IMG/VR virus record: IMGVR_UViG_2778261503_000006
DNA from: a virus
Lineage: Duplodnaviria; Heunggongvirae; Uroviricota; Caudoviricetes
DNA: 64,000 nt
Reading direction: 5' to 3' (one strand)
Shown piece by piece: positions 11,493 to 51,787 of the stretch. A program made the position numbers and the translations under genes. Position 1 is the stretch's first letter. Each line of letters opens with the position of its first letter. The notes beneath the pieces were generated by a model that had not been told where the DNA came from, did not search any database, and saw only the letters and a program-made list of their open reading frames with translations.

Positions 11493-12491
11493 ATGCAATC
11501 ACTGAATACTGTTACGGATCGCTTCTCCCTGGTAGAGAAAATCCGCAAACACACACCGCAGAACAACCGAAATTACGTCATTCAGTCGGTACGAGACACA
11601 TTCAACTCGCCAGAAACAAAAGAGCGTATCGCGCTGGGTGAGATGTATGGTTATTACGGTCATGGTCGCCGGGCGATGCACTATAACAAAACGAAAAGCC
11701 TGAACTTGCCGGAAGTCTCTGTTGTGATGGTAGATGGGAAGCCTGTTGTATTGGAGAACGTGCCGTCAAACAGGACTATCGACATTTCGATTGACGACAA
11801 CGGCATTGTTACTCATACGCAGGAAATACTGGATACAGACACCGGGCGTATTGTTCAGGGCATGATTAATTCTGGTGCTGGTGGTTGGTCGTGGGCTACA
11901 TCTGGTCCAGATTCATCGGTATCCCTGGTAAAGTCTTTCCACGGCTTTGATTACGTAACTGTGCCTAACTATATCAGCCTCGACAAGAAAAGCCTGATGC
12001 TTGAATCAGCAGAAGAGCGCGATGCGGCTATTCATGCAGCACTTATCGAACAAGGTTTTACCGATAACGCTGCTACGGATCTGGTTCACCACTTTTCAGC
12101 AATGAAAAATCAGCAAGCCATGCTCGAATCTGCACATCGTGAAGCCCTGGAATCAGAATTGATGCTCCTTGAAGTGGAAAACATACAGCTTCGAGATAAG
12201 CTGCGCGCTCAAACAGCGATGATGGAAAGCCAGGGGGAAAATGCAAAGCAATACCGCCGGATTTTGCGTGAAGCTATCCAGGAAATGCCTGTTTTTATCA
12301 GCGCAGAACAGCGCCGGGCGCTCTGCCGTATGCAGTCTGAAGATGATGCCCGCATAGTGGCTGCGATGCTTGAATCTCTTGGGGCAAATGCTACTTATGG
12401 CTTACCGGTATCAGGCAAGAAAGAACCAGAGTTATCACCGAAGGAGAACAAAAACACTACCCCGTTACTCTTCGTTTCCAGAAGGGGGTAA
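11493..12491 (+). CDS. hypothetical protein with C-terminal coiled coil (head protease/scaffold-like by context; not confirmed)
   Basis: 332 aa, 14 bp downstream of the previous gene. Confidence 0.5.
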   Translation: MQSLNTVTDRFSLVEKIRKHTPQNNRNYVIQSVRDTFNSPETKERIALGEMYGYYGHGRRAMHYNKTKSLNLPEVSVVMVDGKPVVLENVPSNRTIDISIDDNGIVTHTQEILDTDTGRIVQGMINSGAGGWSWATSGPDSSVSLVKSFHGFDYVTVPNYISLDKKSLMLESAEERDAAIHAALIEQGFTDNAATDLVHHFSAMKNQQAMLESAHREALESELMLLEVENIQLRDKLRAQTAMMESQGENAKQYRRILREAIQEMPVFISAEQRRALCRMQSEDDARIVAAMLESLGANATYGLPVSGKKEPELSPKENKNTTPLLFVSRRG

Positions 12492-12502
12492 TCGCCTTGT
12501 TA

Positions 12503-12520
12503 AGTTAAATTTCTAACATA
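12503..12520 (-). promoter_or_regulatory. operator-like motif (core TGTTAGAAA, reverse orientation)
   Basis: agttaaatttctaacata; member of the dispersed motif family. Confidence 0.4.
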
Positions 12521-12608
12521 GTGTATTTATATACACTGTTGATCCTGGTGGATGGGATCGAGTAGGATCGCGGTCACTGCTCCGGTAGCGACTGCCAAAA
12601 AAGCAAAA

Positions 12609-12629
12609 GCCGCTTCTCAGCGGCTTTTT
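12609..12629 (+). terminator. rho-independent terminator
   Basis: gccgcttctcagcggc followed by ttttt. Confidence 0.7.
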
Positions 12630-12781
12630 GGGTGTATAAATCCACTGCCATAGATTTATACGGTAGATAGATTTTTTCACGGAACTATCTGGCGAGTATT
12701 TTAAATTCAGTTTCAGTAACTTTCAACACTTCTGAGTATAAAAACAACACTGAATACCACAAAAAAATCAAAGGTCATCAG

Positions 12782-13654
12782 TTGAGTTTTTTTGCTCGTC
12801 ATAGCGGTCTTCTTTCCCCTTCACATAGCGCCATTATTGCCGAGTTCGCCAACCTGGCAGGGTCTACCGATGAATACATGATCCGTCGCTCATATGCTGA
12901 TATGTCCGAGATTACAGGACGCAGTATTTCTACTGTGCGCCGGGCATTTGCTGAAGCGACGAAGTGCGGAATGCTTGTTAAGCAACATCAGGTAGCGAAT
13001 AACAATGCCCAGGTGTGTAACGTATATCGGTTTACGACACAATTTCTCCACTTCATTCATGTAGCAATGGAGATAGGGGGTAAGCAGGGCATCAAATTTG
13101 CCAACGCCACAAAACTGGTTAAGCAGTTGATTTCAAAGGTTCGTTATTTTTTTGAAACTGGGAACCCCCTGTTCAAATTGAACAAGTCCCCCCATGTTCA
13201 AAATGAACAGCCAATAGAAAATAAGAGTCACTCTATAGCCAAAAGAAGAGAAAGATCATGCGCGGTTCAGCCAAAGGCTTCACCTGCAGATAGTTCTCAA
13301 ACGGATAACGGGGTACTGGATAAAAAACCAGTAATCAGGGAAGAACATACCAACCACTGCCTGGCGGCGGCAAAAGCGAGAGCTGCAAAGCGTCGTTCAG
13401 ACGAGGGGCACGCAAAACGGCAGGCTCTGTATCGTACCGCTGAAAATCTGGCAAAAAAATTTGCATGGATACGTAGTGCCGCTACCGCAGTGAATAAGCC
13501 TAAACAATCCAGTGCCCTAGATTTCTCAATGGATTATTCTGGCTCCCAGGGGTGTGCAACCATTGGTGAAGCCTTTGACCTGATGAAACAGCGTGGCTAT
13601 CGGTCTGAATTTGACCGTGAGGATTGGTCAATCCCTGCGGGATTTAGGGGATGA
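12782..13654 (+). CDS. DNA-binding protein, possible replication initiator (RepL-like by size and context)
   Basis: 290 aa from TTG 12782; HTH-like ITGRSISTVRRAFAEA; preceded by GATC cluster and palindrome. Confidence 0.4.
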   Translation: MSFFARHSGLLSPSHSAIIAEFANLAGSTDEYMIRRSYADMSEITGRSISTVRRAFAEATKCGMLVKQHQVANNNAQVCNVYRFTTQFLHFIHVAMEIGGKQGIKFANATKLVKQLISKVRYFFETGNPLFKLNKSPHVQNEQPIENKSHSIAKRRERSCAVQPKASPADSSQTDNGVLDKKPVIREEHTNHCLAAAKARAAKRRSDEGHAKRQALYRTAENLAKKFAWIRSAATAVNKPKQSSALDFSMDYSGSQGCATIGEAFDLMKQRGYRSEFDREDWSIPAGFRG

Positions 13655-13707
13655 CCTGTGTGTCTACAAAACATCCCAATGATCGGAAAATGCTCGGCCG
13701 ATTATTT

Positions 13708-13738
13708 ATGTTAGAAAATTAATTTGCTGTTTCTAAAA
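13708..13738 (+). promoter_or_regulatory. operator-like motif pair (atgttagaaaattaattt plus inverted partial gtttctaaaa)
   Basis: upstream of the icd-like/ant operon. Confidence 0.45.
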
Positions 13739-14067
13739 CGGAATGTATGATCTGCATCATCGACTGAAGTCATCCATTGCTGAAATTTTTAGTTGATCTT
13801 CCATGTTTTCAGGCTTATATTCATGCCGTCGTAGCAAATTCTGCGACCGGGTTTGACAGCCTGAATGTTAGTGCGGACAACCGCAGATTTCCGATATTGC
13901 GGTATTTTTGTGTCCGTAAACCGCGTTACGCCCGAATTATGGTGGGGCGTGATGGGGAGGCTTCGGCCTGCTGGTTTCACTAACGCCAGTCTGTCAACCC
14001 TGTCACGTCCTGCCACCTGTTTGACAGCGGGTGGCAGGTTGTTAAACCTGTTAGTGAGGCCGTAACT

Positions 14068-29848: not shown

Positions 29849-29864
29849 CATTAGATATTTAGTA

Positions 29865-29883
29865 TTAATTTTCTAATACATTC
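29865..29883 (-). promoter_or_regulatory. operator-like motif, variant core (attaattttctaatacatt), reverse orientation
   Basis: upstream of Lpa-like gene; second variant ttagatatt at 29851-29859. Confidence 0.35.
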
Positions 29884-29956
29884 ATCTTTTTACCAGTCTA
29901 TACAGTTTTAACATTCTCATTATCATCCCCTCGGTCATTTCCTGCCCGGGGGATTA

Positions 29957-30349: not shown

Positions 30350-31176
30350 GTCTGGTTAATTGGGAGGAGCACCGCGCCCGCTTTATAGCGTTGCGTGAAG
30401 AAAAAGGGATCACTGTAAAGGAATACTGTGAGGAGCATGGCCTTAGCTTCAATACAGCCAGAAAGCATCTCAATATGAAAAAAAATGAGGTGCGGTCGCA
30501 GGTAAAGACAACAAAAAAAAGCACCAAATCACCTGAAAAAAAACGGGCGGGAAGAGCAACAAAAAAGCTGGAAGAGGGTGCAGAAAAAACAAAATTTACA
30601 GAAATTGACAATTCGCAGGGCGCAGGTTCTTTCCGAAGTATGCCGAGAAAGAAAACTTCGGATCATGAAAATAATTCAAATAATAACAATGAGATAAAAG
30701 AATCTGTCAGGAGATCATTGCGCGAAAAAATGGCGAAAATGATCCCCGAAGAAGATAAAAACGCCCCAAAAATTGAGGGATCTTCTGCAATGATCCCTGA
30801 CGGTGCTGTGCAGCGTGCCACATTGCCAACTACGAATGTGGCTCGCGATATGATGAAGAACGGCGCAGAAGAACACCTGCGGTTAGCAATTCAAATGGCG
30901 CAAGAGCGCGCACTTCAGTATCAAAGCATTGTTGATCAGGAGGCCGAACGTCTACAGGCGGAAATAGACGCCTTGGGCGATAAAGAGCCAGAAGGAATGC
31001 ACCCTGGGCAGCGCCTTCTCGGTCTAATCAGTGACGCGGCCTACTACATTTTGGGATGTTCCCCTCCCACCAGCAGCAGCAGATCATTCAGTCAGTGCAG
31101 GAAACGGGGAGTAGGACGACCGTCACGTCCGGACACGGAACGGGGAAGTCGTCCCTTACCGCGATGTTGCTGTTGA
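30346..31176 (+). CDS. terminase small-subunit-like protein (PacA-like); 3' end probably not as in the track
   Basis: N-terminal HTH-like region; last ~40 aa (PPTSSSRSFSQCRKRG...) look like out-of-frame read of the next gene; overlaps 31056..32456 by 121 nt. Confidence 0.45.
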   Translation: MSLVNWEEHRARFIALREEKGITVKEYCEEHGLSFNTARKHLNMKKNEVRSQVKTTKKSTKSPEKKRAGRATKKLEEGAEKTKFTEIDNSQGAGSFRSMPRKKTSDHENNSNNNNEIKESVRRSLREKMAKMIPEEDKNAPKIEGSSAMIPDGAVQRATLPTTNVARDMMKNGAEEHLRLAIQMAQERALQYQSIVDQEAERLQAEIDALGDKEPEGMHPGQRLLGLISDAAYYILGCSPPTSSSRSFSQCRKRGVGRPSRPDTERGSRPLPRCCC

Positions 31177-33521: not shown

Positions 33522-33534
33522 TATTCCTACTCGA

Positions 33535-33558
33535 TTTAGTTTTCTAACATAAAATTAC
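33535..33558 (-). promoter_or_regulatory. operator-like motif overlapping the promoter region of the 32484..33521 gene
   Basis: tttagttttctaacataaaattac; core TGTTAGAAA on minus strand. Confidence 0.45.
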
Positions 33559-48260: not shown

Positions 48261-48293
48261 ATATGTTAGAAAACTAAAATCAATGTTCTAACG
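48261..48293 (+). promoter_or_regulatory. operator-like motif pair in inverted orientation (atatgttagaaaactaaaatc / aatgttctaacg)
   Basis: 40-70 bp upstream of minus-strand gene starting at 48221. Confidence 0.45.
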
Positions 48294-51113: not shown

Positions 51114-51146
51114 TGTGTTAGAAAATCAATTTTGAATATCTAACCA
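51114..51146 (+). promoter_or_regulatory. operator-like motif pair (tgtgttagaaaatcaatttt plus inverted variant atatctaacc) in a divergent promoter region
   Basis: between minus-strand operon ending 51073 and plus-strand gene at 51194. Confidence 0.45.
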
Positions 51147-51193: not shown

Positions 51194-51772
51194 ATGCAGA
51201 AACAGAGTTATTGGGAGAAACAGAGACAAAAAGCCATGCAAAAATTGGCTGACCCGGCCTGGCGAGAGGAACAAAGGGCAAAGCGCCTTCAACAAGCTCA
51301 ACGCCAGCAGCAGCGAGCGAGAGAAAAAGCCGCATCGCCTGAATATCGGCAAAAGAAAATTGAAAAAGCAAAGCAATATGAACAGCGGAGAAAAGATAAA
51401 GCTGTATCCGCTCCGTCCAAAAAAACACGCACGTCACGCGGCCTGAAAGGCAGATCACTCACAGCCGATGAACGCCGGATACAGACCGCTATCGGTGCTC
51501 TCCCCTGCATTGCCTGCCATATTCACGGGCAACATAGCCCAGTGGTATCCCTGCACCATATCTTCGGGAGAACGGCAGAGAACGCGCATAAATATGTCCT
51601 CCCTTTGTGTAAATGGCACCACCAGTACGCAGCGCCAGCCGAGGTCAGAGAACAATATCCCTGGCTGGTCCCTGTTCATGCTGACGGAAAAATAGGCGGA
51701 AAAGCAGATTTCATGCGGCACAATGCCGATGAAATGACGTTGTATCAGATGGCGATTGAGTTGATAAATTAG
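51194..51772 (+). CDS. ref: Ref-like HNH-family nuclease with basic disordered N-terminus
   Basis: 192 aa; K/R/Q-rich first ~80 aa then Cys/His cluster LPCIACHIHG...SLHHIFGR...LPLCKWHHQ. Confidence 0.55.
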   Translation: MQKQSYWEKQRQKAMQKLADPAWREEQRAKRLQQAQRQQQRAREKAASPEYRQKKIEKAKQYEQRRKDKAVSAPSKKTRTSRGLKGRSLTADERRIQTAIGALPCIACHIHGQHSPVVSLHHIFGRTAENAHKYVLPLCKWHHQYAAPAEVREQYPWLVPVHADGKIGGKADFMRHNADEMTLYQMAIELIN

Positions 51773-51787
51773 TTTTCTAACATTTTA
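51767..51787 (-). promoter_or_regulatory. operator-like motif (aaattagttttctaacatttt)
   Basis: overlaps the Ref-like gene stop. Confidence 0.4.

What the first reader, a model, noticed from the sequence alone, without database searches (positions are those of the whole stretch)
12503..12780. Regulatory/origin-like region: operator motif, 16-bp palindrome, three GATC in 30 bp, terminator
Seen: operator-like motif (12503-12520), perfect palindrome gtgtatttatatacac (12521-12536), GATC at 12541, 12556 and 12566, then a terminator (12609-12629) and an AT-rich leader before the DNA-binding gene at 12782. Inference: a Dam-methylation-sensitive origin or promoter controlling the rep-like gene.
Basis: partly seen in the sequence, partly recalled or inferred. 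Interest (0 to 1): 0.4.

Follow-up and report, generated by a model that had tools for sequence, protein, structure and literature searches.

The report
Lytic replication gene control region
This stretch is the regulatory switch in front of repL, the lytic replication gene of a D6-like, P1-family phage-plasmid; it holds a repressor site, a promoter, a two-way terminator and a probable antisense RNA, which is an expected kind of element and not a replication origin.

Summary
The window is a D6-like P1-family phage-plasmid (96.6% identical to phage D6). Bases 12492-12781 lie between the head protease gene (pro) and the lytic replication gene (repL).

Confirmed:
- The 18-mer at 12503-12520 is a dispersed operator-type motif with about 12 copies, one directly upstream of the C1 repressor homologue.
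- The three GATC sites are real.
- The terminator at 12605-12629 is real and works in both directions.

Not confirmed:
- The "perfect 16-bp palindrome" is 7-bp arms around a 4-bp spacer.
- The GATC cluster alone is what chance gives about once per window.
- Relatives start repL at 12692, not 12782.

Four diverged lineages share CACTGTTGAT(C/T)-N18-TAGGATC with a free-varying spacer. That marks a rightward promoter (-35 at 12539, -10 at 12563) whose hexamers carry two of the GATCs.

A conserved leftward promoter (12726→12698) predicts a 96-nt antisense RNA. It would cover the repL ribosome site and end at the same terminator.

This parallels P1's Op53-P53-P53as lytic replicon, rearranged. The origin is more likely inside repL (dyad repeats at 13165-13209), as in P1. 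Dam sensitivity is plausible but untested. I rate it a new variant of a known kind, of modest interest.

The parts
12503..12520 (.). C1-type repressor operator (AGTTAAATTTCTAACATA), about -73 to -56 from the predicted start of repL transcription
   Evidence: 5 copies with 3 or fewer mismatches against 0.06 expected. About 12 weight-matrix sites, including 33534-33551 directly upstream of the C1 homologue, 29863-29880 upstream of lpa and 13707-13724 upstream of c4-icd-ant. The core TTTCTAA sits a fixed 17 nt upstream of CACTG in four diverged lineages.
12520..12537 (.). Interrupted inverted repeat AGTGTAT-TTAT-ATACACT (not a perfect 16-mer); an AT-rich stretch between the operator and the -35
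   Evidence: The left arm is lost in lineage C and altered in lineage D, while the right arm is conserved as part of ATACACTGTTGAT.
12534..12544 (+). Conserved CACTG followed by the -35 hexamer TTGATC (12539-12544) of the predicted repL promoter; contains the GATC at 12541
   Evidence: CACTGTTGAT(C/T) is invariant in all D6-like lineages, and the following 18-nt spacer varies freely.
12556..12559 (.). Middle GATC, inside the promoter spacer
   Evidence: Present in the D6 group. Absent in lineages B and D. Present at a different spacer position in lineage C.
12563..12569 (+). -10 hexamer TAGGAT (12563-12568), which with the next base forms the GATC at 12566-12569
   Evidence: TAGGATC is invariant at exactly 18 nt from the -35 in every D6-like locus examined, including 25 of 25 loci found through the protein alone.
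12605..12629 (.). Bidirectional intrinsic terminator. It would end pro transcripts and attenuate repL-promoter transcripts on the + strand, and end the antisense RNA on the - strand
   Evidence: The stem is kept through paired changes between lineages (GCCGC/GCGGC versus GTCGCC/GGCGAC). T content of the 12-nt tail is 4-9 on the + strand and 9-11 on the - strand.
12634..12661 (-). Stem-loop 2 of the predicted antisense RNA (GTATAAATC...GATTTATAC)
   Evidence: Two base pairs change on both sides between lineages A and B. Three G-U pairs exist only on the - strand transcript; they would be C-A mismatches on the + strand.
12665..12690 (-). Stem-loop 1 (AGATAG...CTATCT). Its loop is complementary to the repL Shine-Dalgarno-like GGAA at 12681-12684
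12698..12726 (-). Antisense promoter TTGAAA-N17-TAAAAT, lying in codons 3-12 of repL
   Evidence: 10 of 12 match to consensus. Present in 58 related loci. The six codons carrying the hexamers are nucleotide-identical between lineages A and B, the spacer codons change, and only 18 of 50 downstream codons are identical.
12596..12691 (-). Predicted antisense RNA of about 96 nt with three stem-loops
   Evidence: Folding energy -32.4 kcal/mol, z-score -5.56, and 0 of 200 shuffles fold as well. Lineages C and D predict an RNA of 180-186 nt from a different antisense promoter, TTGCGT-N16-TATAAT.
12692..13654 (+). repL, the lytic replication initiator. The long form is 320 aa. The window has GCG at the start position, and the next possible start is TTG at 12782
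13165..13257 (.). Candidate lytic origin core inside repL: two dyad repeats 25 bp apart (CCCCCTGTTCAAATTGAACA and CCCCATGTTCAAAATGAACA), then an A-rich stretch ending in GATC
   Evidence: Tandem dyad repeats sit at the same place in lineages B, C and D, with lineage-specific sequences. P1 has CCCCCATGTCAAAATGATA and CCCCCTGTCAGGATGACG directly before the AT2 region, which is needed for RepL-driven replication (PMC9948254).
13707..13724 (-). Second operator copy, 53 nt after the repL stop and upstream of the c4-icd-ant region
   Evidence: P1 likewise has an operator (Op55) 4 nt after its repL stop. No such site follows repL in lineages B, C and D.

Best explanation
Bases 12492-12781 are the control region of the lytic replicon of a D6-like, P1-family phage-plasmid.

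1. A C1-type repressor binds the asymmetric operator at 12503-12520. Shown: the motif and its regulon-like distribution. Inferred: binding.
2. A sigma-70 promoter, TTGATC(12539)-N18-TAGGAT(12563), starts rightward transcription near 12575. Inferred from conservation across lineages.
3. The operator ends 18 bp upstream of the -35, so repression cannot be simple occlusion of the core promoter. I infer that it blocks upstream (alpha-subunit/UP-type) contacts in the AT-rich stretch at 12520-12537.
4. The transcript meets a bidirectional terminator about 30 nt downstream. Only read-through RNA reaches repL, so the terminator acts as a leaky attenuator (inferred).
5. A conserved leftward promoter inside the first codons of repL (12726→12698) makes an antisense RNA of about 96 nt. 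This RNA is complementary to the repL ribosome-binding site and leader and ends at the same terminator. It should dampen RepL synthesis, as the P53as RNA does in P1 (inferred).
6. Two of the three GATC sites lie in the -35 and -10 hexamers. Dam methylation or SeqA binding could therefore tie promoter activity to replication state (speculative).
7. The origin on which RepL acts lies inside repL, near 13165-13257, not in this region.
For: Identity and context:
- The window is 96.6% identical to phage D6. The flanking genes are annotated as head processing protease and lytic replication protein.
- 111 plasmids carry the same region.
- RepL homology to P1.

Operator. One copy lies 12 nt upstream of the C1 homologue.

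Promoter:
- The hexamers and their 18-nt spacing are invariant while the spacer diverges, across lineages whose RepL is only 35-63% identical.
- The same 18-bp gap between operator and -35 recurs at the lpa promoter, which the scan tool found independently.

Terminator.

Antisense promoter and RNA.

P1 precedent, from the record's annotation: three Dam sites, P53, Op53, the antisense promoter P53as and oriL inside repL. The GATC pair at the P53 -35 is invariant in 22 P1-like variants.

Origin inside repL: and PMC9948254.
Against: - The promoter matches only 8 of 12 consensus positions and has an 18-nt spacer, so it fell below the scan tool's threshold.
- A terminator 30 nt after the predicted start would stop much of the transcription. 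No anti-termination structure was found in the leader.
- The operator does not overlap the core promoter, unlike P1 Op53.
- Support from compensatory changes for the antisense RNA rests on two base pairs and two lineages.
- There are no transcript or binding data.
- The D6 genome paper (Gilcrease and Casjens 2018) could not be read, so prior description of parts of this region cannot be excluded.
Confidence: 0.72

Rival explanations
1. The region is, or contains, the lytic replication origin. The palindrome and the GATC cluster would be origin elements.
For: There is an AT-rich palindrome and three GATC sites next to an initiator gene. The P1 plasmid origin oriR depends on methylated GATC (my own knowledge, not tested here).
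Against: The region has no direct repeats or iterons. The window holds only 2 DnaA boxes, and neither is here. P1 oriL is annotated inside repL, and its AT2 segment is required in cis (PMC9948254). The homologous dyad repeats and A-rich stretch are inside repL at 13165-13257 in all lineages. The conserved bases in the region fit promoter hexamers at a fixed spacing.
Confidence: 0.06
2. The conserved promoter does not serve repL. It makes a short sense RNA of about 55 nt that ends at the terminator, and repL is transcribed from elsewhere or by read-through from the late prt-pro operon.
For: The terminator with its T-run lies only about 30-55 nt after the predicted start, and this holds in every lineage.
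Against: No other conserved + strand promoter lies between the terminator and repL. The + strand T-tail is shorter than the - strand tail, which fits a leaky terminator. RepL is an early function controlled by C1 in P1 (PMC9948254).
Confidence: 0.13
3. The operator controls a leftward promoter with P1-P53-like geometry. Read on the - strand, the order is three GATC sites, -35 TCAACA (12543→12538), a 16-nt spacer, then -10 TATGTT (12519→12514) inside the operator. The product would be an RNA antisense to pro.
For: Read this way, the order GATCs, -35, -10-in-operator mirrors P1. The motif has this same orientation in front of the C1 and pmgS homologues.
Against: The TATGTT is not conserved: it is TGTGTT in lineage B and CCTTTA in lineage C. 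No gene lies to the left on that strand. Operators occur in both orientations upstream of + strand genes, for example lpa.
Confidence: 0.06
4. Nothing is specific to repL. The region is only the 3' end of the late operon (a terminator) plus chance AT-rich motifs and a chance GATC cluster.
For: The GATC cluster alone is not significant. The promoter matches only 8 of 12 consensus positions.
Against: Hexamers, spacing, operator core, terminator and antisense promoter are conserved across lineages whose RepL is 35% identical.
Confidence: 0.03

Closest known systems
Phage P1 lytic replicon control region (Op53 operator, P53 promoter, P53as antisense promoter, kilA, repL with oriL inside)
   Same: Both have a RepL-family initiator, a C1-type operator at the promoter, GATC sites in or at the promoter hexamers, a constitutive-looking antisense promoter firing back towards the sense promoter, and a bidirectional terminator that ends the antisense RNA. 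Both have tandem C-rich dyad repeats plus an A-rich stretch inside repL, and a further operator just after repL.
   Different: There is no kilA. RepL is only 28% identical, and the operator sequence differs (TATGTTAGAAAWWTAATT versus ATTGCTCTAATAAATTT). The operator lies 18 bp upstream of the -35 instead of over the -10. The sense promoter lies upstream of the bidirectional terminator instead of downstream, so sense RNA must read through it. In the D6 group the antisense RNA covers the repL start region itself rather than the kilA 5' end. The locus follows prt-pro, and the immI region follows repL rather than preceding it.
Countertranscript control of plasmid replication initiators (R1 CopA/CopT, ColIb-P9 Inc RNA; attenuation in pT181 and pIP501)
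   Same: A short, highly structured antisense RNA is encoded in the leader of the rep gene. A loop is complementary to the ribosome-binding region.
   Different: Here the terminator lies upstream of the antisense target in the sense RNA, so the pT181-type induced-attenuation mechanism does not fit. This element serves a repressor-controlled lytic replicon, not copy-number control. The comparison rests on my own knowledge of those systems and was not tested here.
Dam-sensitive promoters and SeqA sequestration (IS10 transposase promoter, dnaA promoter, P1 cre promoter)
   Same: GATC sites lie within the -35 and -10 hexamers, and at least two GATC lie within 25 bp in most lineages.
   Different: No functional evidence exists. 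The -35 GATC is TTGATT in several relatives, and the middle GATC is not conserved.
Phage lambda ori within the O initiator gene
   Same: Repeats with internal dyad symmetry plus an A/T-rich segment sit inside the initiator's own coding sequence, in an inter-domain linker. There is a weak PHROG match to 'replication initiation O-like'.
   Different: There are two repeats rather than four, and the protein family is different. This feature lies outside the finding's coordinates.

Membership tests
P1-type lytic replicon (RepL/oriL module) | RepL-family initiator gene | tested here: met
   28% identity over the full length to P1 RepL, pairwise E = 8e-29. tblastn hits to P1, P7 and SJ46 repL. Homologues carry PF26868 Phage_P1_RepL.
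P1-type lytic replicon (RepL/oriL module) | Origin elements inside repL (a C-rich repeat pair followed by an A/T-rich segment equivalent to P1 AT2) | tested here: met
   Met at the sequence level only: 13165-13257 compared with P1 and PMC9948254. Origin function is not testable here.
P1-type lytic replicon (RepL/oriL module) | C1-controlled operator overlapping the promoter | tested here: inconclusive
   The operator motif is present and conserved, but it ends 18 bp upstream of the predicted -35 and does not overlap the core promoter. Binding was not tested.
P1-type lytic replicon (RepL/oriL module) | Antisense promoter and RNA opposing the sense promoter (P53as type) | tested here: met
   A conserved 10-of-12 promoter on the - strand, with the terminator downstream and a structured 96-nt product. 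This is sequence-level evidence; the RNA itself has not been observed.
P1-type lytic replicon (RepL/oriL module) | kilA gene between the promoter and repL | tested here: not met
   Only about 115 nt of leader lies between the predicted start and repL, with no ORF.
P1-type lytic replicon (RepL/oriL module) | Autonomous replication when derepressed | not testable with these tools
   Requires cloning of about 12480-13760 into a conditional-origin vector.
Dam-methylation-sensitive promoter | GATC within the -35 and/or -10 hexamers, conserved | tested here: met
   The -10 TAGGATC is invariant. The -35 is TTGATC in most relatives and TTGATT in some. P1 P53 has an invariant GATCtgGATC at its -35.
Dam-methylation-sensitive promoter | Promoter activity changes with methylation state | not testable with these tools
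   Requires reporter assays in dam and seqA mutant hosts.
Replication origin located at 12503-12780 | Iterons, DnaA boxes or an initiator-binding repeat array | tested here: not met
   No direct-repeat family in the region. No DnaA box in the region.
P1-type pac site | Two clusters of TGATCA/G hexamers inside pacA | tested here: not met
   The region is not in pacA, and only one of its three GATC sites has a TGATC context. The window's densest GATC cluster lies in the pacA homologue at 30661-30795.
Rfam RNA families | Match to a curated RNA family within 12492-12781 | tested here: not met
   The only match is a chance-level hit (STnc50, 24 bits against a gathering score of 55, E = 0.81).

The most novel reading that the evidence does not exclude
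D6-type phage-plasmids gate lytic replication with a layout not described for P1. The repressor acts from a fixed site 18 bp upstream of the -35, and the same geometry recurs at the late-activator gene lpa. A promoter with GATC in both hexamers senses the methylation or replication state. The sense RNA must read through a promoter-proximal terminator that it shares with a countertranscript covering the repL start. In addition, the lineage-specific dyad repeats inside repL (TGTTCA-N3-TGAACA, TGATCA-N3-TGATCR, and TGTCA-N3-TGAYR in P1) would be the long-sought RepL recognition sites of oriL.
Probability: 0.2. Interest if true: 0.55.

Novelty: new variant of a known kind. Interest (0 to 1): 0.3.

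Why it matters
D6-like phage-plasmids are common in E. coli, Salmonella and Shigella: 111 plasmids in one collection carry this region. Their public annotation lists only coding genes here.

Knowing the switch for lytic replication helps explain how these elements stay quiet as plasmids and how they are induced. That switch comprises the operator, the promoter, the terminator and the antisense RNA.

The comparison also points to specific repeats inside repL as candidate RepL binding sites. [quoted passage not shown] RepL is also used as a tool for plasmid amplification.

The kind of system is already known from P1, so the gain is detail and testable predictions rather than a new principle.

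Tried and rejected
- Perfect 16-bp palindrome: rejected.
- The palindrome as a recurrent, late-promoter-type element: rejected, because it is unique in the window.
- Significance of the GATC cluster on its own: rejected.
- Origin in the region: no iterons or DnaA boxes.
- Second sense promoter overlapping the operator (TTAAAT-N17-TATATA): not conserved in lineages B, C and D (by inspection).
- Sense promoter between the terminator and repL (TTTTCA-N17-TATTTT, CTGCCA-N17-TAGATT, TATAAA at 12737): not conserved in lineage B, or it would start inside the ORF.
- Leftward promoter in the operator: its -10 is not conserved.
- Repression by looping between the two operators that flank repL: no downstream operator exists in lineages B, C and D.
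- Strong strand asymmetry of the terminator: only a moderate difference.
- Rfam match: none.
- Pfam and NCBIfam scans of RepL returned nothing. Homology rests on BLAST and PHROG.
- Searches for intermediate RepL lineages gave only P1-like loci in genome contigs. Viral contigs held the same four D6-like lineages plus P1-like loci.
- The D6 genome paper, the P1 genome paper and the P53as paper are not held.
- A 15-nt similarity between 12520-12534 and 12632-12646 is not conserved in lineage B and was not pursued.

Full report
**What the window is.**
Bases 12400-13800 are 96.6% identical to Escherichia phage D6, a P1 relative that lives as a plasmid prophage. They are 98-99.9% identical to many of the 111 E. 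coli, Salmonella and Shigella plasmids that carry this region. In the D6 record the flanking genes are the head processing protease (pro) and the lytic replication protein (repL).

The finding therefore lies in the pro-repL intergenic region. The repL product is 28% identical to P1 RepL over its full length. Downstream lie the c4 antisense RNA and its a1b1 targets, found by Rfam at 13815-14020, followed by the icd and anti-repressor genes.

**Checking the observation.**
- The 18-mer at 12503-12520 recurs 5 times with 3 or fewer mismatches, against 0.06 expected. A weight matrix finds about 12 sites with core GTTAGAAA.
- The "perfect palindrome" is not perfect. It is AGTGTAT-TTAT-ATACACT and is unique in the window.
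- The three GATC sites are at the stated positions. GATC is not enriched in the window (241 found, 248 expected). At least one 3-in-30 cluster arises in 65% of random placements.
- The terminator is real (12605-12629) and is flanked by an A-run and a T-run, so it can act in both directions.
- The gene start at 12782 is doubtful, as explained under "The gene start" below.

**The operator.**
One copy lies 12 nt upstream of the start of a 345-aa gene. D6 annotates that gene as the prophage repressor similar to P1 C1, and it has a weak match to the NCBIfam C1 model.

Other copies lie upstream of the lpa homologue (29863), the c4-icd-ant region (13707) and the pmgS homologue (24652), among other places. 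This scattered, asymmetric, single-site pattern is what P1's C1 operators show (P1 annotation). The sequence differs from the P1 consensus. I take it as the operator of the D6-type C1 repressor, although binding itself is inferred.

**Relatives used for comparison.**
A protein search with RepL gave homologues at 63% and 35% identity. Their contigs keep the order prt, pro, intergenic region, repL, a CHAP hydrolase on the opposite strand, then darB. Together with plasmid variants and viral contigs, this gives four lineages:
- A: the D6 group, which includes the window.
- B: E. fergusonii and Shigella dysenteriae plasmids.
- C: a metagenome contig (L004).
- D: L005, L006 and L019.

**The sense promoter.**
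All lineages contain CACTGTTGAT(C/T), then 18 nt that differ freely, then TAGGATC. All 25 D6-like loci that were found through the protein alone carry the pattern, so the result is not circular.

Two conserved hexamers at a fixed distance with a variable spacer mark a sigma-70 promoter: -35 TTGATC (12539-12544) and -10 TAGGAT (12563-12568), with a start near 12575. It matches 8 of 12 consensus positions, below the scan tool's threshold.

The operator core sits a fixed 17 nt upstream of CACTG in every lineage. The operator therefore spans about -73 to -56 and does not cover the core promoter. The scan tool independently finds a promoter for lpa (TATACA-16-TATCAT, 29899-29926). Its -35 also begins 18 nt after an operator in the same orientation. 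This suggests a shared repression geometry whose mechanism is unknown. I infer interference with upstream RNA polymerase contacts in the AT-rich stretch.

**The GATC sites.**
- The site at 12566 is the last four bases of TAGGATC and is invariant in all lineages.
- The site at 12541 is part of the -35. It is TTGATT in lineage D and in some A and B members.
- The site at 12556 lies in the spacer and is not conserved.

In P1 the homologous control region is annotated with [quoted passage not shown], one of them inside the -35 of P53. The pair GATCtgGATC is invariant in 22 P1-like variants, while the neighbouring bases vary. Dam or SeqA control is therefore a reasonable hypothesis shared with P1. 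Nothing here tests it.

**The terminator and the antisense RNA.**
The hairpin is kept in all lineages, with paired changes in the stem (GCCGC/GCGGC versus GTCGCC/GGCGAC). It lies about 30 nt after the predicted sense start in the D6 group and somewhat further in lineages C and D.

On the - strand the scan finds TTGAAA-17-TAAAAT at 12726→12698, a 10-of-12 match. This promoter is present in 58 related loci. The six repL codons that carry its hexamers are nucleotide-identical between lineages A and B. The four codons between them carry three amino-acid changes, and only 18 of 50 downstream codons are identical. This points to a constraint on the DNA itself.

The predicted RNA runs from about 12691 to about 12597 and is 96 nt long. 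It folds into three hairpins with a z-score of -5.56.
- Stem-loop 1 places the complement of the repL Shine-Dalgarno-like GGAA in its loop.
- Stem-loop 2 has two pairs changed on both sides between lineages A and B. It also has three G-U pairs that would be C-A mismatches on the + strand.

Lineages C and D use a different antisense promoter (TTGCGT-16-TATAAT). Their predicted RNAs are 180-186 nt long, close to the 180-nt P53as RNA that I recall for P1. The P1 record gives that promoter and its start site.

The arrangement therefore parallels P1's, with one change. In P1 the bidirectional terminator lies upstream of P53. Here it lies between the sense promoter and repL.

**The gene start.**
D6 and 52 other loci have GTG or ATG at the position of 12692. 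Only the window has GCG, and its nearest relative, pB2C_96, has GTG. The TTG at 12782 is CTT in lineage B, a Leu-to-Leu change. Synonymous changes occur upstream of it in this reading frame. The true ORF therefore starts near 12692. The window carries a start-codon loss or a base-call error.

**Where the origin is.**
The region has no repeat family and no DnaA box. Inside repL, at 13165-13209, two 20-nt repeats lie 25 bp apart, and each has internal dyad symmetry. Repeats sit at the same position in the other lineages but with other sequences:
- Lineages A and B: TGTTCA-N3-TGAACA.
- Lineages C and D: TGATCA-N3-TGATCR.
- P1: CCCCCATGTCAAAATGATA and CCCCCTGTCAGGATGACG, directly before the A/T-rich AT2 segment.

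AT2 is required for RepL-driven replication (PMC9948254). That paper notes a C/G-rich stretch before AT2 whose role is unknown.

**Verdict.**
This is the regulatory region of the lytic replicon of a D6-like phage-plasmid. It is the counterpart of P1's Op53-P53-P53as region with a rearranged layout. It is a new variant of a known kind. The evidence is entirely computational, and the interest is modest.

Noticed in passing
window 12692-12694: The repL start codon is GCG in the window. It is GTG (35 loci) or ATG (18 loci) in every related locus, including the 99.7%-identical plasmid pB2C_96. The next in-frame start, TTG at 12782, would remove 30 residues, including an invariant glycine. This is either an inactivating or weakening mutation of lytic replication, or a base-call error.
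   Followed up: yes
window 12614-12619: The terminator loop reads TTCTCA in the window and in pB2C_96 but TGAGAA (its reverse complement) in D6 and most relatives, while the stem is unchanged. This looks like an inversion of the hairpin loop.
   Followed up: partly
window 13165-13257; L003 3473-3520; L004 3505-3557; L005 3424-3476; L002 (P1) 2883-2975: Inside repL there are two tandem repeats 24-25 bp apart, each with dyad symmetry, followed by an A-rich stretch. Their position is conserved but their sequence is lineage-specific. In lineages C and D they carry four GATC sites. They are candidate RepL recognition sites of oriL.
   Followed up: partly
window 29863-29926: The lpa (late activator) homologue has an operator copy in the same orientation as at repL. 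A scan-detected promoter there has its -35 beginning exactly 18 nt after the operator, the same gap as at repL.
   Followed up: partly
window 13815-14020: Rfam finds the c4 antisense RNA (68.8 bits) and its a1b1 target element (55.2 bits). A sub-threshold isrK match overlaps them. The immI immunity region thus directly follows repL, whereas in P1 it precedes kilA-repL.
   Followed up: no
window 30661-30795: Five GATC sites fall within 135 bp inside the pacA (terminase) homologue, the densest GATC cluster in the window. It may be the packaging (pac) site, by analogy with P1.
   Followed up: no
window 51114-51131 and 51767-51784: Two operator copies in convergent orientation bracket a 192-aa ORF (51194-51772). 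Further copies lie at 48262, 57550, 25901 and 23609.
   Followed up: no
whole window: The DnaA-box consensus TTWTNCACA occurs only twice, against 7.0 ± 2.6 expected from shuffles.
   Followed up: no
window 12520-12534 and 12632-12646: A 15-nt inverted similarity (87% complementary) links the palindrome left of the promoter with the start of stem-loop 2 right of the terminator, 97 nt apart. It is not conserved in lineage B.
   Followed up: no
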